Positions 13,001 to 42,813 of a stretch of DNA of 52,631 nt are shown piece after piece (the first letter of the stretch is position 1; the number at the start of each line of letters is the position of its first letter). The position numbers and the translations under genes are program-made. Below the pieces are notes generated by a model. The model had not been told where the DNA came from. It saw only the letters and a list, made by a program, of their open reading frames with translations, and made no database searches. The stretch lies in the NCBI RefSeq assembly GCF_000372725.1, contig NW_005201392.1, positions 987,620-1,040,250 on the forward strand. The letters run 5' to 3'. The DNA is from Emiliania huxleyi CCMP1516 (Eukaryota).

Positions 13001-16000
13001 TCGTCCATTTGGTTGAGCTTGTCCTTGATGTAGCTGTCGCCCAGCATGAGCAGCGCACGCACGAGCCCAGAGACCCACCGGCGGCCCCGCTCCGACCCCG
13101 AGGCCATGAGCGCAACCTGCCGCCAGAGCCCCGCTGGCCCTTCGACCGCCGCACCTGGCGTGAAAGTGGTGGCGAGCAGTGGCGACTCAGCCGGCTGCGC
13201 ATCGCTCGCCACGCCGCCCGAGAGGCTGCCTGTGGCTGGCGGCGGCGAGCCCGTGCAGCAAGACGAGTCATGCCGCCCGAGAGGGAGCGCTGGCCAAGTC
13301 TGCGAGAGGAACGAGCCCGCACTAGCGCCGCCGCCGGTGGCGCTGGCGGCGCTGGCGGCGGGGCTGTCGTCGCCGCAGCCGGGTGGATGCAAGCCGGACG
13401 GGGCAAAGCCCGACGACTGGCGAGAGAGACTGGGGAAGAGCGTCGCGTCAAGGAGGAGGGGATCGCCACCTCCAACCGCCGCTCCAACCGCCACCTCCTC
13501 GGCGGCGTCAGCGTCGCGTTCTCCGCCGCCCTCGGAGCGGTGCGCGGCGTCGTCGTCGTTTCCGCCGCTGCCGTAGCCGGAGTCGGAGGCGTTCGACCCT
13601 TTGCCGCCCTCGGGCTCGGCCTCGGAGTAAGCGAGCACCGCGGCGGACAGCACCTCCTGCACCGCCGACATGTCCTCTCCGAGCTGCAGCATCTGATCGC
13701 CAAGGAGGAGCCGAAGCTCGCCCAGCCGCGCGGGCGGCACCTCGAGCACCTGCAGCGCGTCGAGTGTGCGGCGCGCGGCCGATGCCGACTCCTCCCTCCG
13801 GCCGAGCAACGCGAGGATGCGAGCGAGGGCCTCGCCCACGCGTGCAGTGTGCCGCACTAAGGAGCTCGCCCCACCGCCGCCACTGCCGATGTCGCCGATG
13901 ACGCTGCCACCACCGCCGACGCTGTCGGAGAGCGACGACGTGATACTGAGCGCCTCGGAGCAATCGCCGGGCGCCGCGCCGCTGGCGCGAATCAGCTGCA
14001 GCCGCTCGTCGGTGAGGCATGCCCACAGGTTTGGCGCGAGCACCTCGGTGAAAAACTTGCGCCAGCGCGCCAAATCCTCGCCGCCCTCGACGCCCTCGCT
14101 CACCCCGTCGGCAATCTCGCCGCCCTGTGTGGTGGAGCTCCTCCGACCGGAGGGACTACCCGATGTCGCGGGCAGCGCAAACGAGGTGTGCCCCGGTGCT
14201 GCCATGGCCTCGCTACGGGCGTTGGCCTCGAGCAACGCGACAAAGCGTTCGCCGAGAGTGGCGAGCCGGCGCGCGCAGCGGCCCGCGAGCAAGCGCATCG
14301 GCGGCGTCGGCAGGAGCGGATCGAGCACCCCGTGGTCGAGCTCCGAGATGTAAGAGGTCAGGAGCTCGGACATGCCCGCCTCGTGGCGCGGGCTATCGCC
14401 GCCGCGCGGCGACATCGCTGGCCGTCGCTCGGGCGGTGAGGCTGCCGCACCGAGTTGGAGGGTGCGGCGGCGGACGAGCCAGCGAGCGTCGGCGGGCGGG
14501 CCAATCGGCGCCGCCTCTGGCGGCTGATCGGGCCGCTGCACCAAATGCTGCATGAGCGGCCCCCACGGCGGCGGCGGTGGCAGCTCAGCCTCGGCGGAGG
14601 GAGAGCCGCCGCCCTGCACCGCCTCGGCGATCACCTGCGCGACACCTTCATCCGCGCTACTACTCCATAGGGCGTCGAGGTCGGCGGGCGTGGCGCCGCC
14701 AGGAAGGAGAGAGAGGAGCGCAAGGAGCGAGTACGCAGCGGCGTTGTGCTGGCGGAGCAGACCGAGCAGCACCTGCACCGACCGGCGCTGCGATTCGTGC
14801 AGCGCCTCGGAGGGCGTGCCGGCGCCGCCTGCTCCGGCGATGGCGCTGCTGCTCTCGCCGTCCCCGCCGTCTCCGTCGTCGCGGTCTCCACCCGAGCAGT
14901 GCGTGCTGGCGTATACCGCGCTGGGCTCGGCCACTGGTGGCGTCGCCGTGCTGTCGCCCACCCGTTGCTCGCCCGACTCCTCCAGCGGTATTGTCAGGAA
15001 CACGCGTGGGGTTTCCTCCGGCCCCTCCGGTGGGGTGGTGTCGGCCCCGCCTGCCGCACTGCTGCGATCGCCTCCACCGGCACCGCCGGCACCACGGCGC
15101 TCCTCGCGAGCGGGTCCGGAGGAGGGCGTCGCTGTGACTCCATCTGGAGGACGCGGCACACCCTCCGAGTCGGCAGAGCTGCGGCCAGACCCCAGCGCAG
15201 AACCAGGCGCGCTCCGGCGACGCGGCTGCGAGGAAACGCCAGCGCCTCCGCGAGGCTCGTCAGCGTGCCACGCCCCGCGCGCAAAGACCGGGTCCGAGGC
15301 TGAGGCGACTTGCACAGCCACAGAGGCGAGGGCTGACACCACGGGTGGAGGCGGCGGCGAGGCACTCGCGGCACCGCCGGCTGACGCGAGGGTGGTCTGC
15401 GTGTCCTTCGACACGGCTCTCGCCGCCATGGGCTGCCCGCCGTGATCAGCTGCTTGGTCCATGTCGGCAGGCGCTAGCGGCGCCGCCAGCGCTAGCGGCG
15501 CCTGCGCCCTCGCCGGCGCCCTGAGCAGCTCCCGCTCAAGCTCCGCCAGCGAGACGCCCGAGCGCAGCAGCGGCGCGTTCTGGCATATGGCGCCCGGCAG
15601 CCCGGCGAGCGCTCGGAGCACCGGGTGGCCGATGAGCGCGCCGGGCGGTCGCAGATCCGGCGGGAGCACCTCGAGGGCGAGCTCGCGGAAGAGTCGTGCC
15701 GCGTCGTACTCGGAGAGCGGAGACACGTCGATCAGCCGCTCGCCCTGCGATCCGTTGAAGACGCCACTTCGTTGCCGCGCGGTGCACAGCACGCGCAGCT
15801 CCTTTGTGGCGAGCAGCTTTGCGACGAGCGCCTGGACGCCCTTGCAGTCACAGCCGTCGTCGACGTTGTCGAGGATCAGCAAGCCGCGCCACAGCTTGAG
15901 CCCCCGCGAGACGTCGGGCAGCGACCGGAGCTCCATATCGAGCGCCTCGGTGAGCGCCGCGAGCGCCTCCGACTGGGAGCGCCGCCCTGCAAGCTCGACG

Positions 16001-18034
16001 CAGACGCACCCGTCGGGGAACCAGCGCCGCTCGTAGAGGTGACCCGCGGCGGCGATCGCAAGGCTCGTCTTGCCTACGGAAGTGTCTCGGAAGTGTCTCG
16101 GAAGTGCCTTGGAAGTGTCTCGGCAATGTCTCCGAGGCTCGTCTTGCCTACCCCTGGCGCGCCGGTCAGCGTGAGCAGCCGGACCTCCTTATTCCGCTTG
16201 CGGCCGAGGGTGAGCACGAGCTCGCGCAGCTCTACTGCGCGGCCTGTTCACAGCTCGAGGTGTGAAGAGACGCTATTCACAGCTAGAGGGCGCAGCTCTA
16301 CGGCGCGGCCGAGGAAGGGCTTCGGCAGGTAGGGCGGCTCGAGGCCCGGCAGCGGGTTCCGCTCGAGGGGCTCGCCCGGCCACAGCGAGCCGGGCGGGAA
16401 GAGGACCGCCTCGTGCGGGTCCCTGGGAGGGGGAGGCGGCATCGAGAGCCGGCCGCCGGCCGACGCGCGCGCGGGTGGCGGCGCCGGCAGCAGGATGAAC
16501 TTTGCCGCCTCGGCCGCCGGGTGGAGCATCCTCGCCGAAGGGGCAGTGCCGGCGAGCGCGGCGGTGCCCATCTCGAAGGCGGCGCGGACGGAGTTGCCCT
16601 GCACCAGCGCAAGGTAGAGGTGGCGCGCAAAGAGCGCCTACGCCGTGCAAGACAGCCGGGGCCGTGAGCACGGCATCGCGCCGTAGACTCCTAGCACCGC
16701 GTGAATACACGAGTGCAGTGAGCACCGCTCAATGCAGCTGGATACGGCTGAGTGCGGGAGTCCTTAAGATGGGGAGATGTGGGGAGATGTGGGGAGATGT
16801 GGGGAGATGTGGGGATCCGTGCTCCGCATCTAGTGGCGAGCGCCGCAGCGTCGTCGAGCACCTTTGCATCCGCGCGCACACCGACGACATGGGGGACGCC
16901 GCACGCGGCGAAGACCTCCGCGGCCGGCTGCGAGTGGCACGCCGACACGAAGACGAGCCGCGTGCCTCGCACCAGGTTGGCTGGCGCGAGCAGCGCGTGC
17001 AGCCGGTCGAGCGAGAGCTGGTCGAGCGAGCCCTCGTCGTCCTCGAAGCCGAGGAAGAAGGCGCCGGTCTCCTCGTCGATGTCGCCGTGGCAGACGAGGT
17101 GGAGCATGAGCGGCTGCAGCGCGAGCATCTCGCCGAGCGCGGCGCTGCTCGCGACGCCGGAGGACAGCGTGAGGTGCTTGCGCGCGCGCCGCAGCACGTC
17201 CAGCAGCGCCTTGACCTCGCCCTTAAAGTCCAGGGTGAGTGCCTGGTGGTCGAGGGGCAGGATGCGCCGGTTCTTCCTCCAGACCAGCGGCGCCGCGTGA
17301 AGCAGCGCGAGCTCGAGCCGCCCGCCACCCGTGTACAGCGCGCTGCCGCCAAAGCCGTAGAGCGCGCCCGCCGCGTAGCCTCCGGGCGCGGGCGACTGCT
17401 GATCCGGCACCGAGTGCGCCCCCCCGGAGGGCTGGGAGCGGAATCGCGCGACCTGCGGCTCGGGCGCCGCCGACGTCGAGGCCAGCGAGTGCTCGCGGCG
17501 CAGGATGCCACTCGGCAAGCGCTGGCACTGATCGAGGGGCGAGGATGCCTCTGCGCCCGGCCCGGCTGCCAAGGCGGGAGATTCGCGGCACGACAGCTGG
17601 CGGTGCGATGCCGCCTCGCCAGAGGTTATGGAGTCAGAATGACAGCCAAGCAGCATGTCCGAGGCGCGGCGAGGCGGCCGAGGCGTCGTCATCGACGAGG
17701 AGCGCTCCGAGCACGGCGGCGGGGTCGGCTCGCGGACGAGGGCGCTAGGCGTCAGCGGGAGCAGAGGAGCCATCTCAGCCCGCAGCTCGAGAAGCCGCGC
17801 CGACCCGACCTGCGAGCATCCCTCCAGCGGAAGTACCGCGCCGATGAGGGACCATGCCTCAAAGACGCTGTCGAATGCTCGCACAGCCTTGAGCCTCGTC
17901 GTGTCGACGCCGTCCGCCTGCAGCAGGGCGATCACCTGCTCCGCGGAGATGACGTCCTCAGCCCAGTTGACGCGCAGCAGCAACCGGGTCGGGTCGGCTC
18001 CGAGAGTGTAGCGGAGAGCAAGCTCGGCCACCAT
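10087..18034 (-). CDS. NLR-like tandem CHAT-STAND protein (CHAT, NB-ARC-like NTPase, TPR, degenerate CHAT, second NTPase); ~2508 aa, 5 exons
   Basis: Exons 16844-18034, 16310-16637, 16148-16243, 12751-16073 and 10087-12675 join in frame. CHAT dyad LHLVCHG / LVFVSACHS. NTPase 1: FLGRAVEL, GAPGVGKT, FPDG, LLILDNVD. NTPase 2: FVGRHLEL, GAKGYGKS, FPHG, LLILDRCE. TPR-like helices lie between the two modules. Confidence 0.85.
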
Positions 18035-18348
18035 GTGCACCGATTTTTTTCATCAAACGCCACCGTTAGGACCGTCCTCTCGTTTCTTTCTCTCTTTACA
18101 TCGGCTGGCTAACGGCAATAACACAGGCACTGGAAAGTTTACGCTTCCTCCAGCAGGCCTCCGGCACATCGATATGCAGTTCGGGCTCGAGTGAGGGCCG
18201 CGGTTGCGCGGGGCCGGGCTACGGGGGGCCTTGCTCGGGCTGCCGAGAGTGATAAAAAAAATCCATTGCCGTTGCGGACAAAGAGCCCGCTCGACGCCAC
18301 GATAGCCAACGCGCGCGGACAAGAACCCGCTCGTTCTCGCGCTGGCGC

Positions 18349-20632: not shown

Positions 20633-21664
20633 TCAACCCTTGTGAATCACAAATGTATGCACGCGGGGCAGCCTCGCCCGCAGTGATGCTGGCTGTGGGC
20701 AACCCATGCCAATGCAGCCGCGCACATCTAGGGCGACTAGCGAGGCTGCTCGGTGAGCAACGAGGGCATCGAGTGCGGCGGCGGTGAGCCCTCGGATGCC
20801 GTGGAGCGACAACACCTCGAGCGGGCAGCCGGCAGCAATGGCCGCGACGCCCACGTCTGTTACGCCAAGGCACCACGAGATCGATAGGGAGTGCAGCGCG
20901 GACGCGACCGCGCCGAGGGCGAGCAGGGGCGCGTCTGCCAGGTCGTTGAGGCCGGTGAAATCGAGCTGTGTGAGGCTGGCGCGAGCCGCGCGCGCCAAGC
21001 TCAGAATGGGCGCCTCGGAGAGCTGTCCATTGGCATAGAGCGTGACCGACACCAGCCTGGGGTTGCCCTGCATGATCGCAGCGGCAGCGATGTCGTCGAG
21101 GAGCGGCATGCGTGTCAGATCGAGCTCTGTGAGGCGTCGCAGCCGCGATGCGACCGACAGCATGCCCTCCGAGCCTATGCCGGTGCACCCCGACAGAGAG
21201 AGGCTCTGCAGCCGGCCACAGCGTGCGAGGTGTCGCGCCGAAGAGTCGGTCAGCCTCACTGCGGCGTAAAGTCGCAGCGATACGAGCGAAGCGCCGCAGG
21301 CACGAACGAGCGCCTCGACGCCGCCGTCGCCGAGGCTGCGGCAAGCATCAAGCGCAAGCGCAGTCAGCCCCGTCGGCAACAGGGCAAGGTGCGCATCGGT
21401 GAGCCTGTCGCAGAATGCTACCTCCAGGCGCCTGAGCTGCGCGTACCGACCACCCGCCTCCCCAAGGGCGTCTTCAAAAAATGCTTTGGGCTCCCGGTTG
21501 CCCGCGAGGTACAGGGCCGCGAGCGATGACCGCCGCGTGGCGGAGCTCAGCACAGCGGAGCAGGAAGCGAGCCGACCAAGGGTCTGCGCGGCGCAGCGAG
21601 CGTGCAACGCAACGAGCTCGAGGGCGCCGTCTCGCCGGCGAGCGTCCTCCTCAGGCGCTGGCAT
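20633..21664 (-). CDS. Leucine-rich repeat protein, cysteine-containing (FBXL/AMN1-like) subtype
   Basis: Repeated LxxLxLxxCxxLTDxxL motifs (LRRLEVAFCDRLTD, LQSLSLSGCTGI, LHSLSISWCLGVTD); no clear F-box seen. Confidence 0.85.
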   Translation of the reverse strand: MPAPEEDARRRDGALELVALHARCAAQTLGRLASCSAVLSSATRRSSLAALYLAGNREPKAFFEDALGEAGGRYAQLRRLEVAFCDRLTDAHLALLPTGLTALALDACRSLGDGGVEALVRACGASLVSLRLYAAVRLTDSSARHLARCGRLQSLSLSGCTGIGSEGMLSVASRLRRLTELDLTRMPLLDDIAAAAIMQGNPRLVSVTLYANGQLSEAPILSLARAARASLTQLDFTGLNDLADAPLLALGAVASALHSLSISWCLGVTDVGVAAIAAGCPLEVLSLHGIRGLTAAALDALVAHRAASLVALDVRGCIGMGCPQPASLRARLPRVHTFVIHKG

Positions 21665-21716
21665 GTCAATACATTTTGCAAGGCGCGGGCTCCGGGCGAG
21701 GTACTCCCACCCACCC

Positions 21717-22550
21717 GGTGAACCTTCTTTTCTACCAGGCTAGGATTGAGAGCAGCCTCGCTCTCAATCCTAGAAGTCGAAGGATTGTGAGCAGCACTCC
21801 TCGCAATCGTAGCATCTCTGTGCGATTGTGAGCGCCTACGCTCGCAATCCTACATCTTCTAGGACTAAGAGCAGCTCCGCTCCCAAGCAAGATGACTGGT
21901 GACGCCTACGACTACTACCAGCGCGCTCGCAATCCGAGCAAAGTCTAGGATTGCGAGCAGCACTGCTCACAATCCTAGCAACATGCCTCCGATTGCGAGC
22001 AGAAGCGCTCGCAATCCTAGAACTTTCGCCGATTGCGAGCGACACCGCCCACAGTCCTACGACTTCTAGGATTGCGAGCGGGTCCCCTCGCAATCGGTGC
22101 GACACTGTTGGATTGTGAGGAGACCCCCCCGGCGCGCTCACTCACAAGCGCTCGCGGCTGGAGCGATTGGGAGCGCCCCCTGTGCGACTGCTAGCAATCC
22201 TTGGATCTTTGGTCTGATTGTGAGCACCGCCGCTCATAGTCCTACAAGATGTAGGATTGCGAGCGCTACTGCTCGCAATCGGAGCCATGTTGCTAGAATT
22301 GTGAGCAGTGCTGCTCGCAAGCCTAGACTTTGCTCGGATTGCGAGCGCGCTGGTAGTAGTCGTAGGCGTCACCAGTCACCTTGGGAGCGGAGCTGCTCTT
22401 AGTCCTAGAAGATGTAGGATTGCGAGCGTAGGCGCTCACAATCGCACAGAGATGCTACGATTGCGAGGAGTGCTGCTCACAATCCTTCGACTTCTAGGAT
22501 TGAGAGCGAGGCTGCTCTCAATCCTAGCCTAGTACAAAAGAAGGTTCACC
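21717..22550. mobile_element. Foldback-type non-autonomous element with ~300-bp inverted arms made of palindromic ~40-bp units
   Basis: 21717-22019 is the near-perfect reverse complement of 22252-22550 (GGTGAACCTTCTTTT...AAAAGAAGGTTCACC). Internal unit is GATTGNGAGC-N5-7-GCTCNCAATC. The target-site duplication is ambiguous (CCC, or CCCACCC/CCCACAC). Confidence 0.85.
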
Positions 22551-23251
22551 CCCACACGCCTCTCGGTTTTAGTCCCCGAATATGACCCGAGTTGCACGAG
22601 GCCGAGCCCTGCGCAATGCGTTCCCCCCGGTCTTGATAAGGTTCCCCATGCCAGTTTCGGGGCGTAAACCCTGCCCGGCCCCTAGAGCGCCCCAGGTAAG
22701 GCCCAGGTGTGGCCTAGGCCCTAGGGCATCAGAAGGGACCAAGAGGAGTCCAGTCTGAGCCATACAGCCCATGCATGTCTTTGCCCCCGAAGGTCGCGTT
22801 CAAAATGCCCGGAACGGACGTTACAGTGGTGTCCGGCCGGCGCGATCACGGACGGAGCTGTGACGCTCAGGGAAGCCTGATGAGGTACTGGTTTCTTTGC
22901 CCAGGGCTGTCCTTCCCCCCAGGCTGGATCAGCTGAGCAAGAGGTTTGGGGCGGGGAGAATCCGCCCCGGTCAGATCTTCAGATATTTGGATGACCGAAA
23001 TCACCCCGTTTTTGCCCATTTTCGGTCATCCGTCAAAATATCTGAAGATCCCAATATAGGATGGCACAAAGTTACTCTTACTTGACGCCTCTGAAGGGGA
23101 TGGCTCACTCTCACATGCAGGCGTACACGCCATACACACACATCAACTCTCACGAACGTTACTGTACAGCATGAATGAGTGTCATCACGTAACATGCACA
23201 TGCACGACACAAGATTGACGTAAATGCCAAGTAGACACACCAGCTGGCCCA

Positions 23252-26200
23252 TCACACCTTTTCCGAACCCTCCCCTTCTGTGGAAGTGGAAGGCGATCCC
23301 GCGGCGCCATCTATCGCCCGGCACAACGGACATGCATTGGAGCTCGTGCTCGATCGCGCCTGCGTGATCATGCAGCGGGCATGGAAACGGTGACCGCAAG
23401 ATAAGGTGTAGCACGCCAGGTTGCCCGTCGCTGTCGCGACTAGCGGGTCAAGGCAAATGGCACAAGCTTCAGCCGCGTCTGATGGCGAGCTGAGGGCCCT
23501 GACGATCAATATGTCGGGGCGTCCCTGCGCCTGCACTGCAGCTGCTTCCGGGGCAATAGGGACGGCCGATACAGCCTGCACGATCGCACTCTGCAAGTGT
23601 TGCGTCCCGGCCGGCGTGGCCGCGTCGATGCACAGCCTGGGTTTGCGTTCCAGCAAGCCGCGTCGACTGACGGCCGTGCCAGCAGCAACTGCGGAGGAGA
23701 TCGTCGTGACAGCAGGTGGGGGCTGCTCGAGCAACGGTGGGGTAGGCCAAACGCGAAGCGCTCGGTCGCCGCCACCCGTTGCAACGTGGTCTCCATTGGG
23801 CGAATATGCAACCGCGCGAAGGACTCCACTGTGTGCGTCTGTCCTCTCGAGGACGGGCGACGACAAGTCGGAGGCGGCGTCCCACACGCGGAGCGCCCCG
23901 TCGCCGCCGACCGTAGCGAGGCGGCTCCCGTCGGGCGAGTAGGCGACCGAGTAGATGCCGCTGGTGGTGGCTCTCTCCATGAGGGGCGACGACAAGTCAG
24001 AGGCGGCGTCCCACACGCGCAGCGCCCTGTCGGTGCCGCCCGTGGCGATGCGGGTGCCGTCGGGCGAGAAGGCGACTGCGCGGACTCGGGCGCCGTGCGC
24101 ATCCGCTCTCTCCATGAGGGGCGACGCCAGGTCTAAGGAGGCGGCGTCCCACACGCGCAGCGCCCTGTCGTCGCCGACTGTGGCGAGGCGACAACCGTCG
24201 ACGGAGAAGGAAACTGAGTAGATGGCGCTCGTGTGCGCGTCCACTCCTACCACGAGGGGCGATGCCAGGTCCGAGGCGTCCCACACGCGCAGCGCCCCGT
24301 CGTCGCCGACCGTGGCGATGCGGCTGCCGTCGGGCGAGTATGCGACCGAGTAGATGGCGCTGCTGTGTGCGTTCGGCTTCTCCAGAGGCGGCGAGGACAG
24401 GTCCGAGGCGTCCCACACGCGCAGCGCCCCGTCGCTGCCGCCGGTGGCAATGCGGGTGCCGTCGGGCAAGAACACGACGGAGAAGATGTCGCCCCTGTGA
24501 GCCGTGGCTTGTTGAATGCTAGGCGACGACAGGTCTGAGGAGGCGTCCCATACACGCAAAGCGCTGTCGCTGCCGACTGTTGCGACGCGGCTGCCGTCGG
24601 GCGAGTACGCGACCGAGAAGACGCTGCCCTGCCGCCTTCTTGCAGCAGCAAGGACCAGGGAGCAGCAGCAGAGGCAGGTCGACATACAGATGCCAAGTAT
24701 TAGAGGCAGCCGCAAGTTGTCACTGCCAGTGTCGACGAGAGGGAGCGCACTTCGCTCCAACGGGAGGTACGGGGGTGGGATCAGCGGCGGAGGCGCCGGC
24801 GCCGGTATGATGCCCTGGCAGAAGAGCAGCCCGTCCGGAGCAGTCAACGGAATGAGCTGCCCCGACTCGTCGGGCCTCTGGCAGTAGTCGTGCTCGTAGA
24901 AGATGTCGGTGATGAAGCCCCGGTCCGCGCAGAACTTGACGTGCATGAAGTCGCGGTTCTGCTCCTCTCTCGACAGCCCCAGGCACGCTCTCTCGTACAC
25001 CGCCTGCGCCCCCGGATCGGGCGGCAGGAGCAGCGCCTGCACCTCGGGCGGCTGACGGGCGTAGTAGTCGCACATGTCGATCGGCGCCAGCCACACCGGC
25101 CGGAAGTCGGGGTCTTCGCAGCCGCACTCGCCGTCTCGCGTCGCCGGCCGCCGCACTGGCCACGAGCTGTTTGGCTGGCTTATGGCGGCGTAGAAGGTGT
25201 TGACGGTGTCGAGCGCAGTGGAGGAGGAGTTGGCCAGCGCGTCGTAGTCGAAGAAGATGTTGCAGGGGCAGTCCACCTCCTCGTTGCTCTGCGTGGGCCC
25301 AACAGGCCCGATGTCGGTGCCGCACATCATGGCGCCGTCGCGGGCAAGGCGTGGGTAGAGCGTGAAGTTGTTCGCCGCCTCGGGCACGCAGTACTCCTTG
25401 CTGAGGTAGTAGTTGTAGCGCACAAAGGCGGGCGTCGCGCACAGCCGGACGTGATGGTAGTACTCATTGACCTGCTCGCCCGGCGCAAAGGCGGAGCAGG
25501 TGCGATTATACGACTCCTGCAGCTGCCCCGACGTGAAGAGCACGTCTCGCTGCGTCGCGTTGAGGGTGTCGAACCAGAAGCACAGGTCGAGGGCGGCCAG
25601 CCAGACGGGGCGGTCCTCGGCGCTCTCGCACGCGCAGCCCCACTTCGGGTCGTACACGGGGAGGCTGAGCGGCCAGGCGTCGTTGGTCTGGAGGACGAAG
25701 AAGAGCGCGTTGGTGTCGTTGAGGAAGGAGGGGGAGTTCGCTGTGCCGCCATCCAGGTCGTAGTAGGGCGAGCATGAGCAGGGCGGCGAGGGCGAAGGAG
25801 GCGAGGACGGTGGAGGCGAGGGCGGCGGCGGCGAGGGTGGAGGCGGCGAGGGCGGAGGAGGCGAGGGCGGCGGCGGCGAGGGCGGAGGCGGCGAGGGCGG
25901 CGGAGGCGAGGGCGGTCGATGCGAGGGCGGAGGAGGCGAGGGCGGTGGAGGCGAGGGCGGTGGAGGCGAGGGCGGAGGCGGCGAGGGCGGAGGAAGCGAG
26001 GGCGGAGGCGGCGAGGGCGGAGGCGGCGAGGGCGGAGGTGGAGAGGACGGAGGTGGACTTGGTGGCGGCGCTGAAGGAGGCGGCGGCGATGGAGGCGGCG
26101 GGCTCGGCGGGGGCCTTGGCGGCACCGGGCTGGAAGGTGGCGGCGAGGGAGGCGGCGGCGAGGGTGGGGAAGGCGAGGGCGGCGGCGACCCTGGTGGTGG

Positions 26201-29200
26201 TGGCAAAGGCGGAGGCGGTGAGGGCGGAGGCGGGCTTAGTGGCGGCGATGAAGGAGGCGGTGGCGATGGAGACGGCGGGCTGGGTGGGAGACGAGGCGGC
26301 GACGGGTTGGGCGGTGGTGGCGAGGGTGGCGGTGGCGAGGGCGGTGGCACTGGAGGCGGTGGTGAGGGCGGTGGCAATGGGGGTGGTGGGGAAAGGAGTG
26401 GGGGCGACGGCAAAGGTGGCTCTGTAGAGGGAAGCGGCAGAGATGGCGGCGGTGGAAAGGGCGGAGGCGGCGAGGGCGGCAGCAACGTCGACAGTGGGGT
26501 CAGCGGTGATAGTGACGGTTGAGGTGGTGGATGGGACGGAGGGGGTAGGCAGCCCCTCACAAAGGTTCCAGAGCAGCTAGCTTCCCCTGGTGCCAGACCC
26601 CAGCAAAGCTTGAACTTCCCAGCTTTAGACGTCGTCTTGAAGTACGATGAGCAGGAGGAAGGGTCTGCGGAGCCACAGCCGCCGCTTGAGAGCTCAACGC
26701 GCCCGTTCACGTCGCCGCAGTCGAGCGGAGGAGGCGACGGCAGCGGTGGCGAGGGCGGAGGCGGCGAGGGTTGCGGAGCCGCAGGCGGCGGCGGCGGTTG
26801 CTGCGGCGAGGTCATCGGCGCATTTGGCGGGAAGGAGGGCGGAGGTGGCGACGGCGGAGGTGGCTTGGGCGTCGGTGGCAAAGGCGGAGGAGACGATGGA
26901 GGGGGCGGGCTTGGTGGCGGAGGAGTGGGGGGCGGCGAAGATGGCGGTGGCTGCCATGGTGGAGGAGGGGAGTGAGGTGGAGACGAGGGTGGCGAGGGCG
27001 GCGGCGGAGATGGCGGCGGCGGCATCGGCGGCGGTGACGAGGGTGGTGGCGGTGATGGCGGCGGAGGGGACGGCGGGGGCTGGGTAGGCGGCGGCGACAA
27101 AGGCGGGGGCGACGGTGGAGGGGGCGAGGGTGGCGGCGGTGACGGTGGCGGTGGCGAGGGTGGGGGCGGCGACGGCTGAGGTGGCGACGGCGGTGGCTGG
27201 GTGGGAGGCGGTGAAAAGGGCGGCAGCGGACTCGACGGTGCTGGAGAGGGAGGCGGCGGCGATGGAGGCGGCGGCGACGGCGGCGGCGACGCTGGCGGAG
27301 GCGACGGCGGCGGGGGCGACGGCGGCGGTGGCGACGGCGGAGGCGACGGCGGCGGGGGCGACGGCGGAGGCGGCGACGGCGGCGGTGGCAGAGGCGGCGG
27401 CGACGACGGTGGCGGTGGCAGCGGTGGCAGAGGCGTGGGCGAAGGCGGCGCGGGTGGCGGCGACGGTGGCGGAGGGGGCACTTTGGGATCGAACTCTGGT
27501 ATGAACGGAGGAGCACTGGGCGGCGGGGGACTGGGTGGCGGTGGCGCGGAAGGCGGCGGCGGCGATGGCGGCGGCGGCGATGGCTGTGGCGGCGATGTCG
27601 GGGGAGGAAAAGGTGGCAATGACGGTGGCGGCGATGGCGGAGGTGGCGAGGGCGGCGACGACGGCGGCGGCGACGGTAGCGGCGGTGTTGGGGGCGGTGG
27701 CGACAGTGGCAGCGCTGGTGGCGGCAACGAGGGCGGTGGCGGCGAGGACGGTGGCGGCGACGGCGGCGGTGGCGAGGGGACAGGCGGCGACGGCAGCGGT
27801 GGCGAGGGCGGAGGCGGCGAGGGTTGCGGAGCCGCAGGCGGCGGCGGCGGTTGCTGCGGCGAGGTCATCGGCGCATTTGGCGGGAAGGAGGGCGGAGGTG
27901 GCGACGGCGGAGGTGGCTTGGGCGTCGGTGGCAAAGGCGGAGGAGACGATGGAGGGGGCGGGCTTGGTGGCGGAGGAGTGGGGGGCGGCGAAGATGGCGG
28001 TGGCTGCCATGGTGGAGGAGGGGAGTGAGGTGGAGACGAGGGTGGCGAGGGCGGCGGCGGAGATGGCGGCGGCGGCATCGGCGGCGACGAGGGAGGAGGC
28101 GGTGAGGGCGGCGGGGGCGACGGAGGAGGCGGCGAAGGAGGGGGCGGAGAGGGCGGCGGCGGAGAGGGCGGCGGCGGAGACGGAGGAGGCGGCGAGAAGG
28201 GAGGCGATGGAGGTAGTGGAGGTGACGACGGGGGCGGCGGCGGCGGCGGCATCGGCTGGCCCGTCGCGCAGTAGTTCTGATAGGTTGTGCCGGTCTTGGT
28301 CAGCTGGTACATGTAGGTCATCGTCGCTCCCTGGTCGTACGAGCACGTGCAGGTGGGCACGTCCTCGGGCGATAAGCTGACGCTGTTGTAGCAATTGGCG
28401 ACGCCGTTCTTGATACAGGAAGCGCCGCAGTTCCGGTAGAAGCCGCAGAGCTGGGCGGTGGACGGCGCCTCCCCCATGACCGGCATCGGCGAGCTGTTCC
28501 ACGTCCGCCAAGTGGCGCCGCAGTTGTAGGAGCTGGTTTCGAGGCCGTCGGAGGTCGCCATCATGCGACTCGGGTTGCCGCTGGAGTCCTCGAACCTGTA
28601 CCACGTCGGGGTGCTGGAGACGTAGTAGTCCTGGGCAGACAAAGAGGTATAGGTGTGGAGACGGCGCGTGTCCTCGAGCACCGTCGAGTCGCTAAGCGAC
28701 TGCGGGCAGTCCGCGTGGCAGTAGCCGTTGGGGGCGACCGGCGGCGGGGAGGGCGGCGGTGGCGACGGCGGCGGCGGCGACGGCGGCGGCGGAGACGGCG
28801 GCGGCGAGGGCGGAGGCGACGGTGGAGGCGGCGAGGGAGGGATGGAGGGCGGAAAGGGCGGCGGCGGCGGCGGCATCGGCTGGCCCGTCGCGCAGTAGTT
28901 CTGATAGGTTGTGCCGGTCTTGGTCAGCTGGTACATGTAGGTCATCGTCGCTCCCTGGTCGTACGAGCACGTGCAGGTGGGCACGTCCTCGGGCGATAAG
29001 CTGACGCTGTTGTAGCAATTGGCGACGCCGTTCTTGATACAGGAAGCGCCGCAGTTCCGGTAGAAGCCGCAGAGCTGGGCGGTGGACGGCGCCTCCCCCA
29101 TGACCGGCATCGGCGAGCTGTTCCACGTCCGCCAAGTGGCGCCGCAGTTGTAGGAGCTGGTTTCGAGGCCGTCGGAGGTCGCCATCATGCGACTCGGGTT

Positions 29201-31301
29201 GCCGCTGGAGTCCTCGAACCTGTACCACGTCGGGGTGCTGGAGACGTAGTAGTCCTGGGCAGACAAAGAGGTATAGGTGTGGAGACGGCGCGTGTCCTCG
29301 AGCACCGTCGAGTCGCTCAGCGACTGCGGGCAGTCCGCGTGGCAGTACTGACTTGGCATGTAAGGCGGCGGGGAGGGTGGCGGCGGGGAGGGCGGCGGCG
29401 GGGAGGGCGGCGGCGGAGACGGCGGCGGCGAAGGCGGCGGCGAGGACGGCGGGGGCGATGGTGGAGGCGGTGACGGCGGCGGTGGAGACGGCGGTGGTGG
29501 CGACGGCGGAGGAGGCGATGGCGGTGGTGGCGACGGCGGTGGCGGCGACGGCGGCGGTGGTGATGGCGGGGGCTCTGGCGGCGGTGGCGACGGCGGAGGG
29601 GGCGAGGGTGGTGGAGGTGAGGGCGGCGGCGGCGATGGTGGCGGTGGCGCTGGCGGCGGTGAGGGCGGAGGCGGTGAGGGCGGAGGAGGGCTGGGGGGCG
29701 GAGGAGAGGGCGGTGGTGGCGAGGGCGGCGGCGGTGAGGGCGGCGGCGGCGAGGGCGGCGGTGGCGAGGGCGGCGGTGACGGTGGCGGGGGTAAGGGAGG
29801 AGGTGGCGTGGGTGGAGGTGGCGAGGGCGGCGGCGGTGACGGGGGTGGCGATGGCGGCGACTTGCACGGTATTTCAATGGCCGAGGCAGCGTCCAACTGA
29901 GGCAGCAAAGGGAGGAGACGGGTGAGACACAGGGAGTTGCGGGAGATTGGTCGAAATTATCACGGGCCTGCGTCCAGTGAGACCCTTGATCAAGCGAGAC
30001 CTGCACCTGCACCTGCGCCGAATTGTCCTCTCCCGACCGGTCGGACGCCGCGCTCGACGAGCTGCATCGCACGACGGAGGTTGAGATCTGCTCTGCAGTC
30101 ATCGAGCTCTGGCTGCCACCGTCGGTGAGGCGGCAGGCCAGATTGCCTACATGCGCACATGGCGGAGCGGTGAGCAGCACACCACACTGCAGATCGCGTC
30201 GTCTTGGCGCCTGTGCCTGTGTCCGCAAAGCCCGTCCCCACCGCCTCGACCGACACGACCTCGTGGCAAAACGAGTTGTGCAGGCAGAGGTAATGGACCT
30301 GGTGCATGCAGGCGGGCGATTTTGCAGTGAGAGGCGCGGGGCGCACAGGGGGCGCTCGAGCTTGCTCGCCTCGATGCAAGCCTCGTCGACGATGCTCGGA
30401 ATGACCGCTTGCGCAGCGGCGACGTCAGCGAGCCCCACCCAGGCGTAGCTGCTGCTCGGCGTGGACGCCCACGCCGTCATCAGCGCCACGTCTGCGTCGC
30501 CAAAGCCGATTGTAACCAAGGTGATGCCCTGCGACTTGATGCTGTTAGCCTCGTCGGTGACGGTCGCGTCGGTGCCGCCCACCGTCTGCCTCCCGTCGGT
30601 GAGCAGAACGAGCACTGGGGGGGCGGTGGCAGCGCCCCGCGGAGCCGCTGTCGCGAGGTCCTTGGCAGCCGAGAGGCCGCAAGATATGCAGGTCGTGCCG
30701 TACGAGCCATCCCGCGCATTGATCGCAGCAACGACGCTCGACGCGTCGTCGCTAATCGGGCTGACAACCTTTGCAGCGTTATCGATGTCGCACGCGGGTG
30801 TGGACGCGTTCACGCCGTTGCAGTAGAAGCCTGCAGAGGGTGGCAGAGGGTGGGCCCGTGAGCAGTGGGCGGAGTGGGCGAGCCGGTTCAGGGCATGAAG
30901 CTGTGTGTGGAGGCGGAGACGTGTGCCGCACTCGAAGGCCCGTTGAAGGTCACGATGCCGACGCGAGCCCCCTGTGCGGACAGCGAGAGCTCCCCCACAA
31001 AGTCGAGCATCAGCTGCGTCAGATCGCCGTGGATGTCATTGACGCTCGCCGAGTTGTCCACCACGAGCACAAAGTCTTGCGCTGACTCGCAGGCGGTGGG
31101 TGCCGGCACGGCAGTGCACCCGACCGCTCGAGGCTCCACTGGCGGGAGCGGCAGCGACGGCGGTGGCGGGGAGGAAGGCGGCGAGGGCGGCTGAAAGGGA
31201 GGCGGCGGCGAAGGCGGCGGCGGCGAGGGCGGAGGCGGCCAGGGAGCCGCCACCGCTGCTGAAATTGACAGGAGGAGGAGCAAGCCTGTCGCCGGTAGCA
31301 T
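23252..31301 (-). CDS. Large single-pass membrane protein: signal peptide, VWA, Ser-Pro(n) stalk with Cys-rich modules, TM, 7 WD40 repeats, RING-H2
   Basis: MLPATGLLLLLSISAAVAA signal peptide; VWA MIDAS motifs DFVLVVDNSAS and VLLTDG in 5' exons (joins inferred). The 2218-codon terminal frame contains TM LPLILGICMSTCLCCCSLVLAAARRR, seven xSPDG..(I/L)AT.G.D.ALRVW repeats, and CAIC...CGHRFHARC...CPLC. Confidence 0.8.
26734..28086 (-). repeat. ~300-bp direct duplication within the Pro-rich stalk, offset 1053 bp
   Basis: Peptide SPPHSPPPPWQPPP...SFPPNAPMTSPQQ occurs twice; TTGCGGAGCC at 26771 and 27824. Confidence 0.9.
28240..29347 (-). repeat. Near-identical duplication of a ~160-aa Cys-rich extracellular domain, offset 624 bp
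   Basis: YCHADCPQSL...WYRF...CGATWRTW...NYCATG is encoded twice (~28251-28723 and ~28875-29347); one synonymous difference seen (28694 vs 29318). Confidence 0.95.
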
Positions 31302-32059
31302 GCCGGACGACGGCCGCCCGGCGCGCGGCGGACGCCGCGTGCGAGCGGAGGCGGCCAAGATGGCAGATACTCGCGCGGCGGTCGACAAAAGGCGGCGCCC
31401 GCAACAGTTGGACTAACGGACGCGCGCACGTCTTGAGCACTTGAGCACTGCTGGATAGGGTCGGTTCCGCATGGTACGGGACCCCTCGATCGTCTCGCCC
31501 ACCCTCACTGGTATGTTCATTGGGGGGGGTCATAACGCACGTCTTGCGACGTACAAGTCCGCATGATTTTCGACCGACCGCAGCGAAACGCAGGGGCGGC
31601 TCCCCCCCGACCGAGCTGCGAAGAAACAACGGCGTCCACACCGGCCAGAAGCCCCCAAATTTTCTTCGGCGCTGCGCGCCGTTGCAGTCGAGTGTAGGTG
31701 CATGCACATGTGTACATGTGCATGTGTGTTGCAGCCCAGATAGCTATCGTGCCGCGGAATAGGTCCATCCATGTCCATGTGGTTAGAAAAAATGCTCGCC
31801 CGAAAGCGCCCGCCGGTGTGTGTGAGATACAGCGCTACAAGTTTGGACGCATCCGACACACGGGCAGGGTTTCGCGCTTAGCAGCTGGCCAACGGTGATG
31901 TGCACGCCGTCGCGTCGCCGACGGCTCGTGCTGCTGCGTATGATAGCAATCCAATTTTAGGGCATCTACAAGCCCGGGATGCGGATGGACATACCATCGC
32001 TGAATATATCAATATATTGAGCCCCCCTTAGCCAATCCAGGCCCTGGTCCCTCTAACTA

Positions 32060-36092: not shown

Positions 36093-39000
36093 ACCACCTG
36101 CGCGGCCATCGTCGTCTTGCGGGCCACATTGGGCAGGTTCTGGTCGATAGCCGTCACCTGCAACAGGGAGCCGGAGGAGCCGGGCTCAGGAGCCCCTCCA
36201 ACCCCTCGCGGATAGCCTGGCCGTGATCTTTGACGGACCTTGCCCGGTGCTCCCCACGCGGGGCGGCTGACTAGCGGCGCTCCGCCGCCCCGAGGAGCCT
36301 CGGGTGCGGCGCCCAGCCGGCCGTGCTGCCCGCGCTTGTGCAGCGCAATGACCTCCTCGTTCTTGCGCTTGAGCACGGCGCCCTGCCTTGCGTGGTCCTG
36401 CTGCAGCCGGTCCAGCTGCGCCGCCGTCCTCTCCCCCTTGCGGCGCAGATTGGCCAGCTCGCGCTCGCGCGCCTGGCAGCAGTGGCGGCAACGGCGGTGG
36501 TCAACGGCGCCGGCTCGGAGCGGCAAGTGGCGACGGCGGCGGCGGGTGAAGGAAGAAGGTGGCGGCATGGGCCCGGGGCTCCCCCCCCCCGCGGCCCAGA
36601 CCCCAACTTCGCGTTGCCGCTAGGGCTGCCATGAGTTCGCTAGGGTTGTATGTGCGCTGGCAACAGCGGAGCTCGCTGGGCGCTCGCAAGTTAGATCGGG
36701 GCGCCTGGTGCTGCGCGCGGTGCGAGTCCGCCTCGTCGCGCATTCGGCGCGTGAGCGCCACCTTTTGCGCCTTGATCGTGCTGATCTCCTGTCCGAGCTC
36801 CTGCAGACAAGAGGGGCCGCCGAAGAGTTTGTTGGAAGGGGAAGGGGGAAAGGGGAAAGGGGAAGGGGGGAGAAAGGTANNNNNNNNNNNNNNNNNNNNN
36901 NNNNNNNNNNNNNNNNNNNNNNNNNNNNNNNNNNNNNNNNNNNNNNNNNNNNNNNNNNNNNNNNNNNNNNNNNNNNNNNGGGAGGGGGGGGGGGGGGGGA
37001 GGGGCCAAAGCAGGGAGGCCGAAGGAGAGCCTGGCGCCTGGACGCGGCGCTCTGCATGCACGCGCGCGTTGAGAAGCGCCCGCTGCTGCGACTGCTGGTT
37101 GCGCAGCGACTTGAGCTGGGCCTCCGCCGCCTGCGGGGGCGACGAGACGGGAGTGGGTGTGTCGCAGGAGTGGTGGACGTGCCTCGTGGTGTGAGGCGGG
37201 GTGAGCCTAGGGGTGAGCCTAGGGTAGCGATCTCCCTGCCTGCGTACGAGCTCGTTGCTAGAGCTCGCACTAGAGGCCGTCATCGCATTCGCCTTCCTGG
37301 GACCCAGTGCTGACTTCTGACTGTCGTTGCTGTCTCTTCCTTCTCGACTGTCTGTGCTTGTGCGTCTTGGGGCCCGGGGTTGTGTTTTGCGTGAGGCGGT
37401 TGTGTCGCGGCGTGTCTGTTTTGGGGGAGGCCACACGTGGTCTCAGGGCGCGCCTCGAGCTTGCGCGCAAACTGCTCCCGCAGCGCACTGGTCTTGGCAT
37501 CGCTCCTCTCCTGCAGCTCCGACATCTTTTTCGCCAGCTCGTCGCGCTCGCGCCTTTAAGTAATGGCCATTCATGGTCATGGATGATCATGAATATTTAA
37601 TTCAATTAGGCACTCGTCGCGCTCGCGCCCCGTCTCGCGCACCGACGTCTCGAGGGCTGCGAGGGCGCGCTGCAGCTCCTCGAGCTCTTCGGCTGTCGCA
37701 GGTCCCGACTGCTGCGACTCGGCGAGCAGCTCTTGCTTCAGCGCCAACGTCTCGGTGAGGCCCGCGAGAGCCTGGTTGCGCAACCAGTCCGGCGGTCACG
37801 GGATCCCGAGGCTCCGCTTCGCCGCGCGGATCACAGCGGCATCTCGGTGCATCGGGCATCTCGGGGCATCTCGCCGCCGGGGGGAGGAGGCTGGGTGAGA
37901 GCAGCGGTCGAGAGCAGTGGCAGTGGGGCGGGTGTGCTGGGGGGGGGGGGGGGGGTAGTGTGCAGAGACGTAGACGGAGCACAGAGGCAGAGGGCGGCCG
38001 CGCGCCGTTCACATCGATCTCGGGTAATCTCGGGTAATCTCGGGTAATCTCGGGCGGGTTAATCTCGGGCGGCCGCGCGCCTCCGACATCGACTCCTGCT
38101 TTTGCAGGAACTCGAGCTCCTCCTCGAGCTGCTCCGCCTACCACCAGCCAGCTGACGTTGCCGTGCCGCCGCCGCGATGTAAGGCGCGGCGCGGCGCCAC
38201 GCAGCGCTCACGCCTTGTACTCCAGGTCCTCCGCGCTCGCTTCCTCCTCCGTCGACCCGTCCGACTCCCGCCCACCAGAGGGCGAGTCCGCGCCGGCGGC
38301 GGCGGCCTCGCCCGCGGCGGCGCAGTCGTCTCCGGTGGCCGATGCTCTGATGCTAGCCCGCATCGCGTTGAGCTTTTGCTGCAGCGCGTGGCAACGGTGG
38401 AGCGCGAGGTCGGAGGGCGTAGCGATGGCCGCCCCGGTCGCCGCGAAGCACGGCGCGAGCGCAGACTGCCCAGAGATGGAGAAGGTCGCTAGCGGAGGCA
38501 ACGGTCCGCCGCCCGACTCGTAGTGCTGCAGCCGCGCGGTGAGGGTCGCTACCTGCTCGAGCAGCGAGATATGGGGAGATATGGGGAGATATGGGGAGAT
38601 ATGGGTCGCCACCTGCTCGAGCAGATCCGCACTCATTAAATAGTATGCTAATTAACATTCAATGAGGGTCTCCACCTGCTCGAGCAGATCCGCGATGCGG
38701 GCCTGCACCGGGTCCTGCGCGATCAGCAGCTTGTTCTGGATCTGCCGCGCCCGGTTGGCGTACTTGAGCGTGTTGAGCGTCTCCTCCATGTCGGCGTCGC
38801 TCGGCGAGACGCACGCGATCATCAGCGTGTGCGCGTTGCCCCCGAGCGAGTCCTGCAGCAGCCGCGTCAGCTTCGAGTCGCGGTAGGGCACGTGGGCGTG
38901 CTTCTCGCACAGCGCGGAGATGACGTTGCCGAGGGCGAGCAGCCCCTGCAGAGCAGTGTGACGACCATAAGAGCCGTTGTTCTTGGCCAGCCGGTGATTC

Positions 39001-42457: not shown

Positions 42458-42813
42458 TGGCGGGGGGGCGACTCGTCTCGGTGTTCTCAGTTCTGTGAGT
42501 TCTCGACTCGGACTGTCTGTGCTTGTGCGTCTTGGGTCCGGACCGGAGGTCCGGGGCGATTGAAAAAGAGAAAAAGCTCTGGGTCAAAGAGAGTAACGCC
42601 GACCGGGGGCCTGCCGGTCGGAATTGTGCTGCCCCCCCCCCCCCCCCCCCCGCCTTCTCGAGTCCCTGTCCGCGTGTGAGGGTCTGAGGGTGCCCCAGCA
42701 GCACCGCCAGCCACGCCCTCGCCCGATCAACACAGCCGCCGCCGGGCTGCACTCCTGAACGGGCGCCAGGGAGCTCGTCGCGCCCCCAGCCCCGCAGCGC
42801 TCGGGCCAAGTCG

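What the first reader, a model, noticed from the sequence alone, without database searches (positions are those of the whole stretch)
23252..31301. Receptor-like E3 ligase: VWA and extensin-like ectodomain joined to cytosolic WD40 and RING-H2
Seen: within one open frame, a very long Ser-Pro(n) stalk with three kinds of Cys-rich module precedes a Cys-rich TM helix with an RRR stop-transfer, seven WD40 repeats and a C3H2C3 RING. Upstream exons add a signal peptide and a MIDAS-containing VWA domain. Known: VWA domains mediate metal-dependent adhesion, SPn repeats are hydroxyproline-glycosylated rods in plants and green algae, and RING-H2 domains recruit E2 enzymes. Inference: a surface sensor projecting beyond the cell covering and coupled directly to ubiquitination. 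I do not recognise this domain combination.
Basis: partly seen in the sequence, partly recalled or inferred. Interest (0 to 1): 0.75.

Follow-up and report, generated by a model that had tools for sequence, protein, structure and literature searches.

The report
Giant algal surface receptor-like ubiquitin ligase
This spliced and transcribed algal gene encodes a 2,578-residue protein with a long proline-rich arm carrying adhesion-type domains, one membrane-spanning stretch, a WD40 propeller and a RING finger, and it likely works as a cell-surface ubiquitin ligase with its own built-in substrate adaptor.

Summary
RNA-derived contigs show four introns (one GT-AG, three GC-AG) that join signal peptide and VWA exons in frame to the 6.6-kb exon, giving 2,578 aa without a stop. 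Single contigs in three runs cross the TM-WD40 junction. The order is: signal peptide, MIDAS VWA, a probable Ig-like domain, about 1,020 residues of Ser-Pro stalk carrying two uromodulin/GP2-type D10C domains (identified here), modules B and C1-C2 (no known family), TM, seven WD40 repeats, RING-H2. Paralogs share module C but end differently: TM-RING without WD40, TM-WD40 without RING, TM with another tail, or no TM. The WD40 propeller is therefore a cassette gained or lost between homologous TM and RING parts, and it is under purifying selection (dN/dS 0.31). The host is probably Emiliania/Gephyrocapsa huxleyi or close kin (inferred). Best reading: a receptor-like E3 ligase that works like RNF43/ZNRF3 but is not a PA-TM-RING or ATL member. 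Ligase activity, ligand, location and a single transcript across the stalk are untested, and the RING lacks the usual Trp. Verdict: new variant of a known kind.

The parts
30932..31301 (-). Exon 1: ATG at 31301 (inferred start), predicted signal peptide aa 1-19, short Ser-Pro segment, start of VWA with the DxSxS motif
   Evidence: an RNA contig covers 30931-31134 but not the ATG
30831..30931 (-). Intron 1, GT-AG, 101 nt
   Evidence: joint in one contig of run X3, 24 letters on the short side
30370..30830 (-). Exon 2: most of the VWA domain (MIDAS Thr and Asp)
   Evidence: PF00092 E 2e-13; PDB 4cn8 E 2e-7
30299..30369 (-). Intron 2, GC-AG, 71 nt
   Evidence: joint in X3 and X13
30217..30298 (-). 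Exon 3: start of probable Ig-like segment
   Evidence: the Ig label is by eye and recalled, with no Pfam hit
30147..30216 (-). Intron 3, GC-AG, 70 nt
   Evidence: joint in X3 and X13
29968..30146 (-). Exon 4: rest of probable Ig-like segment (whole segment aa 274-375)
   Evidence: no Pfam or PDB hit for the exon alone
29897..29967 (-). Intron 4, GC-AG, 71 nt
   Evidence: joint in X3 and X13
23252..29896 (-). Exon 5 (6,645 nt): stalk, modules A-C, TM, WD40, RING, stop
25783..29863 (-). Ser-Pro(3-4) stalk, interrupted by modules A1, A2 and B. The five Pro-rich segments of the protein total 1,024 aa, are 67-77% Pro and hold 90 SPPPP. Contains exact duplications of 462 nt (offset 624) and 301 nt (offset 1053)
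28892..29347 (-). Module A1: D8C/D10C (uromodulin/GP2-type) domain, aa 548-699, 10 Cys
28268..28723 (-). Module A2: identical copy of A1, aa 756-907
26549..26719 (-). Module B: 6-Cys module of about 57 aa, no known family; a homolog lies in paralog locus L006 (44%, E 2e-13)
25322..25780 (-). Module C1: Cys-rich unit of about 150 aa, shared by the paralog family, no known family
24818..25270 (-). Module C2: second unit, next to the membrane
24641..24709 (-). Predicted single TM helix aa 2094-2116 with a Cys cluster, followed by RRR
   Evidence: KD 2.41; homologous TM in P0126 (59%) and L005 (53%)
23744..24631 (-). Seven WD40 repeats aa 2120-2415, starting directly after the RRR
   Evidence: dN/dS 0.31 against L005
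23318..23464 (-). RING-H2 (C3H2C3) aa 2509-2557; Gln at the usual Trp position

Best explanation
The gene encodes a spliced, transcribed 2,578-aa protein ordered VWA, Ser-Pro stalk with two D10C domains, novel Cys modules, TM, seven WD40 repeats and RING-H2, and it likely acts as a single-pass, receptor-like E3 ubiquitin ligase. Shown: gene model, domains, transcription of both ends, purifying selection, and a paralog family with swapped modules. Inferred steps: (1) the signal peptide and RRR-flanked helix set an N-out, C-in topology; (2) the Ser-Pro stalk, probably glycosylated and up to about 0.3 micrometre long if fully polyproline II, holds the metal-dependent VWA, the Ig-like segment and the D10C domains away from the membrane, where they bind matrix, scales, other cells or microbes; (3) the WD40 propeller just under the membrane binds a cytosolic tail or adaptor and serves as a substrate receptor in the same chain; (4) the RING recruits an E2 and ubiquitinates that partner or the protein itself, leading to endocytosis or turnover, with ectodomain binding changing the rate. 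The WD40 cassette was gained by, or lost from, a module C-TM-RING gene during shuffling of a modular surface-protein family.
For: Four introns give a 7,737-nt frame with no internal stop. The TM-WD40 junction is crossed by single contigs in X1, X2 and X3; the last WD40 repeat, RING and 3' flank are on one contig in X1, X3, X15 and X2. X3 also carries the spliced VWA joints. Two independent metagenome gene calls, P0137 and P0122, hold C-TM-WD40-RING at 94-100% identity in C, TM and RING. All eight zinc ligands are present, plus Leu after ligand 2, Phe before ligand 5 and Pro after ligand 7 (features listed in PMC3161093 passages); PDB matches are mostly annotated RING E3 ligases. The RING is kept at 58% identity in TM-RING paralogs, one of them a transcriptome-derived protein (P0141). 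All 9 N-glycosylation sequons lie N-terminal to the TM and none in the 460-aa tail. dN/dS is 0.31 for WD40 and 0.15-0.30 for module C. D10C identity.
Against: No activity, ligand, substrate or location was measured. The RING has Gln where most RING-H2 domains have the E2-contacting Trp (EL5 alignment), and so do its paralogs; RNF4, named an E3 in the PDB, has Ser there, so this weakens the claim without excluding it. Paralog L005 has TM-WD40 but no RING (remnant not above chance, 65 of 300 shuffles), and others lack both WD40 and RING, so ubiquitination is dispensable in the family. Continuity across the 4.1-kb stalk is not shown by RNA, and its two 100%-identical duplications could be assembly expansions. 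The splice evidence comes from one study. The GP2/UMOD high-mannose decoy sites are not conserved.
Confidence: 0.5

Rival explanations
1. It is mainly a structural or adhesive surface glycoprotein (a mucin- or extensin-like tether for scales, coccoliths or glycocalyx). The WD40 anchors it to the cortex, and the RING is weak, vestigial or serves only its own turnover.
For: About 1,020 of 2,578 residues are Pro-rich stalk. Module C also occurs in paralogs with no TM or no RING. The RING lacks the Trp. D10C relatives are mostly Pro-rich proteins, none with a RING motif among 28. A proline-rich protein is among abundant coccolith proteins (PMC10290126 passages).
Against: All eight ligands are kept in both RING-bearing paralog types at 58% identity. 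The one allelic change listed inside the RING is synonymous. VWA domains were reported absent from coccolith-matrix proteins (PMC11685980 passages).
Confidence: 0.25
2. It is a sorting or quality-control receptor of the secretory pathway (Golgi, scale or coccolith vesicle, vacuole) like plant RMR proteins: the ectodomain is lumenal and binds cargo, and WD40 and RING direct trafficking.
For: The topology is the same, and a plant PA-TM-RING member is RMR (PMC10686798 passages; the sorting role of RMR is recalled). WD40 propellers are common in coat and adaptor proteins (recalled).
Against: A stalk of up to about 0.3 micrometre with a distal VWA suits a surface better than a vesicle lumen (inference). 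There is no PA domain.
Confidence: 0.1
3. The 5' part (VWA, D10C) and the 3' part (C-TM-WD40-RING) belong to different paralogous genes joined by the assembler within Ser-Pro repeats, or the stalk is wrongly expanded.
Against: One frame stays open through the stalk with modules A, B and C in frame, while the other frames there hold 13 and 5 stops; the spliced exon 4 enters that same frame. Even if this rival were true, the C-TM-WD40-RING half stands on independent contigs.
Confidence: 0.09
4. It is a young by-product of module shuffling with no selected function.
For: WD40-bearing forms were found only in near-identical alleles and one paralog. That paralog lacks the RING and lies beside a copia-type RT fragment. 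10 of 19 allelic changes examined are non-synonymous.
Against: dN/dS of 0.31 over 298 WD40 codons at dS 0.41, an intact 7.7-kb frame, accurate splicing and cover in RNA runs.
Confidence: 0.06

Closest known systems
PA-TM-RING E3 ligases (RNF43, ZNRF3, RNF128/GRAIL, RNF167, plant RMR)
   Same: Ectodomain, one TM helix, cytosolic RING-H2 (definition in passages of PMC9578707 and PMC10686798); the likely working logic of membrane-tethered ubiquitination and turnover.
   Different: No PA domain. The ectodomain is about 2,090 aa of VWA, Ig-like, Ser-Pro stalk, D10C and novel modules. A WD40 propeller lies between TM and RING in the same chain, whereas RNF43/ZNRF3 use Dishevelled as a separate adaptor.
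Plant ATL RING-H2 ligases, including rare members with GUB_WAK_bind or WAK_assoc domains
   Same: TM helix N-terminal to a RING-H2; EL5 (an ATL) is a PDB match, E 3e-5; some grapevine ATLs carry wall-binding domains (PMC5133618 passages).
   Different: No Trp after ligand 6, no GLD motif seen by eye, a WD40 insert, and 2,578 aa against 124-993 aa for ATLs (PMC3161093 passages).
MEGF8-MGRN1 receptor-like ligase complex (recalled; two look-ups were not held)
   Same: A very large multi-domain ectodomain coupled to a RING E3 under the membrane.
   Different: Two polypeptides and different domains; here one chain with an internal WD40. No homology was tested.
Uromodulin and GP2 D10C (D8C, PF23283) decoy module
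   Same: Module A is homologous: a profile of it and 9 relatives hits GP2 7p6r (E 1.8e-9) and UMOD 6tqk (E 7e-7).
   Different: No ZP module was detected. [quoted passage not shown] The Cys set differs.
ANTXR1/ANTXR2-type VWA plus Ig ectodomain (recalled)
   Same: A MIDAS VWA directly followed by a roughly 100-aa segment that looks beta-rich, in a single-pass protein.
   Different: The Ig assignment was not confirmed by any search; the VWA's only PDB match was a mussel thread protein; stalk and tail are unrelated.
Fungal HNWD NLRs (HET-E/HET-D) with highly conserved WD40 repeats
   Same: WD40 repeats with raised internal similarity; the best long-protein matches include HET-E-like and bacterial STAND or kinase WD40 proteins.
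   Different: No NACHT domain. Internal identity peaks at 72 of 100 aa, below the 85% criterion. Repeats match L005 mostly position by position, which argues against concerted evolution.
Extensin and other Ser-Pro(n) hydroxyproline-rich glycoprotein domains, as in extensin-like receptor kinases (recalled)
   Same: 90 SPPPP and 31 SPPP motifs.
   Different: No kinase domain; proline hydroxylation and glycosylation are untested in this host.

Membership tests
RING-H2 domain | Eight ligands C3H2C3 with canonical spacing | tested here: met
   (zf-RING_2 35.2 bits, cut-off 27.3)
RING-H2 E3 ligase | E2-binding surface: Leu after ligand 2, Phe before ligand 5, Pro after ligand 7, Trp four after ligand 6 | tested here: inconclusive
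   Three of four are present; Trp is Gln. RNF4 also lacks it.
RING-H2 E3 ligase | E2-dependent ubiquitin transfer | not testable with these tools
   needs an in vitro assay
PA-TM-RING | Protease-associated (PA) ectodomain | tested here: not met
   No PA family among the Pfam hits of the non-WD40 modules and exons scanned separately; the ectodomain is accounted for by other modules
PA-TM-RING | Single TM with cytosolic RING-H2 | tested here: met
   hydropathy and flanking charge only; no dedicated TM predictor was available
ATL | Invariant Trp after ligand 6 | tested here: not met
ATL | GLD motif between TM and RING | tested here: inconclusive
   none seen by eye in the translation; no profile of the motif was run
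D8C/D10C domain (PF23283) | Sequence homology to the UMOD/GP2 domain | tested here: met
   Transitive: 11 of 28 phmmer hits match PF23283 at E<=1e-3, 7 above cut-off, and all 5 best hits match; profile A3 hits GP2 and UMOD. The direct Pfam scan found no match.
D8C/D10C domain (PF23283) | D10C fold and disulfide pattern | tested here: inconclusive
   single-sequence model unusable, pLDDT 32
UMOD/GP2 FimH decoy module | High-mannose glycan site at N275 (UMOD) or N65 (GP2) | tested here: not met
   no sequon at either equivalent place, by Cys-anchored counting
VWA with MIDAS | DxSxS...T...D | tested here: met
ANTXR-like VWA-Ig | Ig/IPT-type domain after the VWA | tested here: inconclusive
   the segment is split over three exons; single exons gave no hit; the whole segment was not searched
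HNWD-type hypervariable WD40 (HiC) | At least 85% internal identity over 100 aa and concerted evolution | tested here: not met
   72 of 100; positional orthology with L005; criterion from PMC4986451 passages
Extensin-like HRGP | Contiguous Ser-Pro3-5 repeats | tested here: met
Extensin-like HRGP | Hydroxyproline O-glycosylation | not testable with these tools
   needs glycoproteomics

The most novel reading that the evidence does not exclude
This alga keeps a diversified repertoire of surface receptors built by shuffling a shared toolkit (VWA, D10C, modules B and C and others on Ser-Pro rods) onto interchangeable outputs (RING, WD40, WD40-RING, other tails, or secreted forms). This gene is a one-chain receptor, adaptor and ligase that turns contact with bacteria, viruses or other cells directly into ubiquitination, a non-self-recognition system with no kinase step.
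Probability: 0.15. Interest if true: 0.85.

Novelty: new variant of a known kind. Interest (0 to 1): 0.56.

Why it matters
Membrane-tethered RING ligases are studied mainly in animals and plants, and most are orphans. A single chain that joins a very long adhesive ectodomain, a substrate-binding propeller and a RING would be a compact model of surface contact coupled to ubiquitin, in what is probably a globally abundant bloom-forming alga whose surface recognition of bacteria, viruses and its own scales is poorly understood. The natural series of paralogs (RING only, WD40 only, both, neither) makes the role of each part testable. The gene also defines an undescribed roughly 150-aa Cys-rich module and places uromodulin-type D10C domains in an algal surface protein.

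Tried and rejected
No whole genome was held, so copy number in one genome was not counted. Summed contig depth in DNA run X2 is 15,000-38,000 over most of module C against 411-537 over unique parts, but the tool states that this is no copy number. A homolog search with C-TM-WD40-RING was swamped by generic WD40 proteins; none of the 120 listed, out of 7,220, has a RING motif or three SPPP motifs. Module C plus TM found nothing among 4,924 candidates of 1,228-3,910 aa; proteins longer than 3,910 aa were not searched. Module C gave no Pfam hit, no usable ESM Atlas hit and nothing in viral contigs. Its model (pLDDT 63, pTM 0.44, 12 sequences) gave no Foldseek match at E<=0.001 and a best VIA Z of 3.2, which shows neither a known nor a new fold. 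Folding module A alone failed. A RING remnant in L005 was rejected. The direction of WD40 gain or loss is unresolved: 5 of 11 inner branches are open in the C2 tree. The six-repeat form P0122 lacks 138 nt at a place where two repeats share 33 exact bases, so it may be an assembly collapse. The 131-nt skip in X15 has no splice-type ends and lies near a 37-nt exact repeat, so it was not read as splicing. X1 and X15 do not cover the 5' exons, and X3 has a hole at about 23990-24185; neither counts as evidence. The 3' end of the transcript could not be placed, because RNA and DNA contigs all stop at the same repeat near 23030-23060. Paper searches: 0 papers; 0 papers with transmembrane, RING-H2, WD40, Emiliania huxleyi and receptor; 5 listed, none describing this architecture by title or abstract start; 1 paper, passages read. 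Two papers on MEGF8-MGRN1 were not held. Five look-ups of earlier scan findings were empty. No complex prediction was run. No supplementary files were read; the proteome tables of PMC10290126 might list this protein.


Full report
OBSERVATION. The minus-strand frame 23252-29956 is open for 2,234 residues. Within exon 5 the other two minus frames hold 24 and 12 stops, and 500 base shuffles give at least 15, so the openness is not a composition effect. Pfam finds seven WD40 repeats (E 4e-58) and a RING above cut-off (zf-RING_2, E 1.5e-8). The RING has the C3H2C3 pattern. The strongest hydrophobic 19-mer of the protein (KD 2.41) lies just before RRR and the first WD40 repeat; the second strongest is the N-terminus.

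GENE MODEL. Contigs from two RNA-type runs of one study (X3, X13; 2 of 4 runs laid) skip four stretches. Placed on the minus strand these are introns 30831-30931 (GT-AG), 30299-30369, 30147-30216 and 29897-29967 (all GC-AG). Three joints appear in both runs; the GT-AG joint appears in one contig with 24 letters on its short side. The five exons give 7,737 nt and 2,578 aa with no internal stop. The ATG and signal peptide are inferred, since no unique contig covers them. Three GC donors out of four and the high GC content fit Emiliania (Gephyrocapsa) huxleyi, where GC donors are 56-61% (PMC4028052, passages). The host name is an inference; no named hit gave it.

IS THE JOIN REAL? On 22800-25750, single contigs cross the TM-WD40 junction in X1 (24404-24812), X2 (24405-24830) and X3 (24400-24916). 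The last WD40 repeat, RING and 3' flank lie on one contig in all four runs, including the polyA metatranscriptome X15. No credible intron appears there. Two metagenome gene calls, P0137 (seven repeats) and P0122 (six), carry C-TM-WD40-RING independently. The single frame through the stalk, entered in phase by exon 4, argues for one gene.

ECTODOMAIN. The VWA has a full MIDAS. A segment of about 100 aa follows that looks Ig- or IPT-like by eye, as in ANTXR proteins (recalled); single exons gave no hit, so this is a lead. Five Pro-rich segments total 1,024 aa with 90 SPPPP motifs, about 0.3 micrometre if wholly polyproline II (rise per residue recalled).

Module A is a D8C/D10C domain. The ESM Atlas pointed to it (0.89, a lead only). 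Of 28 phmmer hits, 11 match PF23283 and 7 pass its cut-off. A profile of module A with 9 of those 28 hits, chosen as short ones, finds GP2 (E 1.8e-9) and uromodulin (E 7e-7) in the PDB. The direct Pfam scan missed it and its fold prediction failed. The glycan sites that make UMOD and GP2 decoys for FimH (PMC8930769, passages) have no equivalent sequon here, so a decoy role is not supported. Modules B and C have no known family.

THE FAMILY. Module C plus TM found 15 relatives among 7,994 short candidates and none among 4,924 long ones. With cluster members, 61 proteins were mapped. Two have C-TM-WD40-RING (alleles of this gene). Eight have C-TM-RING with no WD40 (P0126, P0127, P0141-P0146; P0141 is transcriptome-derived). 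Five have C, a TM-like helix and another tail. Four with both C units have no TM. Distant relatives (41-48% in C2) fall in clusters whose long members carry a GDSL lipase. The rest are fragments. Six metagenome loci add L005, with C-TM and seven WD40 repeats but no RING, lying upstream of a copia-type RT fragment, and L006, where C is followed by B-type modules and a domain also found in P0127. In X3 a 1,017-nt contig matches only the end of C2 and then differs, so a paralog with another tail is transcribed in the same run. TM (59%) and RING (58%) are homologous between this gene and P0126, and the propeller sits exactly after the shared AAARRRQ motif. It is a cassette, but the tree does not say whether it was gained or lost. 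Caveats: most of these proteins are automatic calls on metagenome contigs, so N-termini are cut, tails may read into introns, and their presence in one genome is not proven.

SELECTION. dN/dS against paralogs is 0.31 for WD40 (298 codons, dS 0.41) and 0.15-0.30 for module C (four loci); it is about 0.7 for the short TM and linker alignments. Of 19 allelic changes examined (taken from the 40 rows shown; 70 more were not shown), 9 are synonymous and none makes a stop. The WD40 repeats reach 72% internal identity, below the 85% criterion for hypervariable fungal NLR repeats (PMC4986451, passages), and they match L005 mostly position by position. An HET-E-like diversifying propeller is therefore not supported.

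MECHANISM. Shown: gene model, domain order, transcription of both ends, constraint, and module shuffling. Inferred: type I topology (all 9 sequons lie before the TM); ligand binding by VWA and D10C at the end of a glycosylated rod; substrate capture by the juxtamembrane propeller; E2 recruitment by the RING; and turnover of a partner or of itself. The RING keeps all ligands and three of four conserved E2-facing residues but has Gln for Trp. RNF4 has Ser there, so activity stays open. I give this reading 0.5, a structural tether with a weak RING 0.25, an intracellular sorting receptor 0.10, a mis-joined stalk 0.09 and an unselected by-product 0.06.

COMPARISON AND NOVELTY. It likely works like PA-TM-RING ligases (PMC10686798 and PMC9578707, passages), but it lacks the PA domain and is not a member. 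It also fails the ATL Trp test (PMC3161093, passages). Wall-binding domains on TM-RING-H2 proteins are known in plants (PMC5133618, passages), so ectodomain-TM-RING is a known kind. I found no other protein with WD40 between TM and RING in these searches and no paper describing it in searches, but no architecture database was available. VWA domains were reported absent from coccolith-matrix proteins (PMC11685980, passages), and a proline-rich protein is among abundant coccolith proteins (PMC10290126, passages); neither paper's passages concern this gene.

VERDICT. The feature is real and transcribed, and the architecture is unusual. It is a new variant of the membrane-tethered RING ligase kind inside a shuffled family of algal surface proteins. 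Interest 0.56.

Noticed in passing
window 10090-18049 (-): A large multi-exon gene with two CHAT (caspase-like) domains (E 1e-5 and 3e-7); the second is followed by a STAND-like ATPase match (below cut-off), and a P-loop-like start is seen by eye in the 12679-16188 frame. It may be an NLR-like or caspase-coupled protein 5 kb downstream of the finding.
   Followed up: partly
window 20636-21739 (-): Leucine-rich-repeat protein (LRR_6, E 4e-8) between the finding and the CHAT gene.
   Followed up: no
window 31432-31536: An element of about 100 nt, 130-235 nt upstream of the ATG, with very high summed contig depth and many loose ends in three RNA-type runs. It has one copy in the window and no Rfam match; probably a dispersed repeat.
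   Followed up: partly
window 21949-22525 and 22800-23050: A satellite of about 40-nt period and a high-depth repeat at which all contigs of the 3' flank stop.
   Followed up: no
L005 2291-2887: Copia-type reverse transcriptase fragment (RVT_2, E 8e-32) about 560 nt after the stop of the RING-less paralog; an insertion may have removed the RING.
   Followed up: partly
P0132, P0135 and their clusters (relatives of window 24818-25780): Module C fused to a GDSL lipase at 41-48% identity, in clusters of 16 and 28 members; the organism is unknown.
   Followed up: no
P0183-P0210 (relatives of window 28892-29347): Many Pro-rich proteins with tandem D10C domains, some with a C-type lectin or beta-helix domain; this looks like a large uncharacterised D10C family.
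   Followed up: partly
window 23277-23281: An in-frame 21-nt insertion in the C-terminal tail is seen in all four runs laid and in P0122 and P0137 relative to the window.
   Followed up: partly
window 1710-3365 (-), 36504-39952 (-), 42587-43594 (-), 47988-49097 (+): Ordinary neighbours: alpha/beta hydrolase, kinesin, a ribosomal L34-like match and an acyl transferase domain.
   Followed up: no
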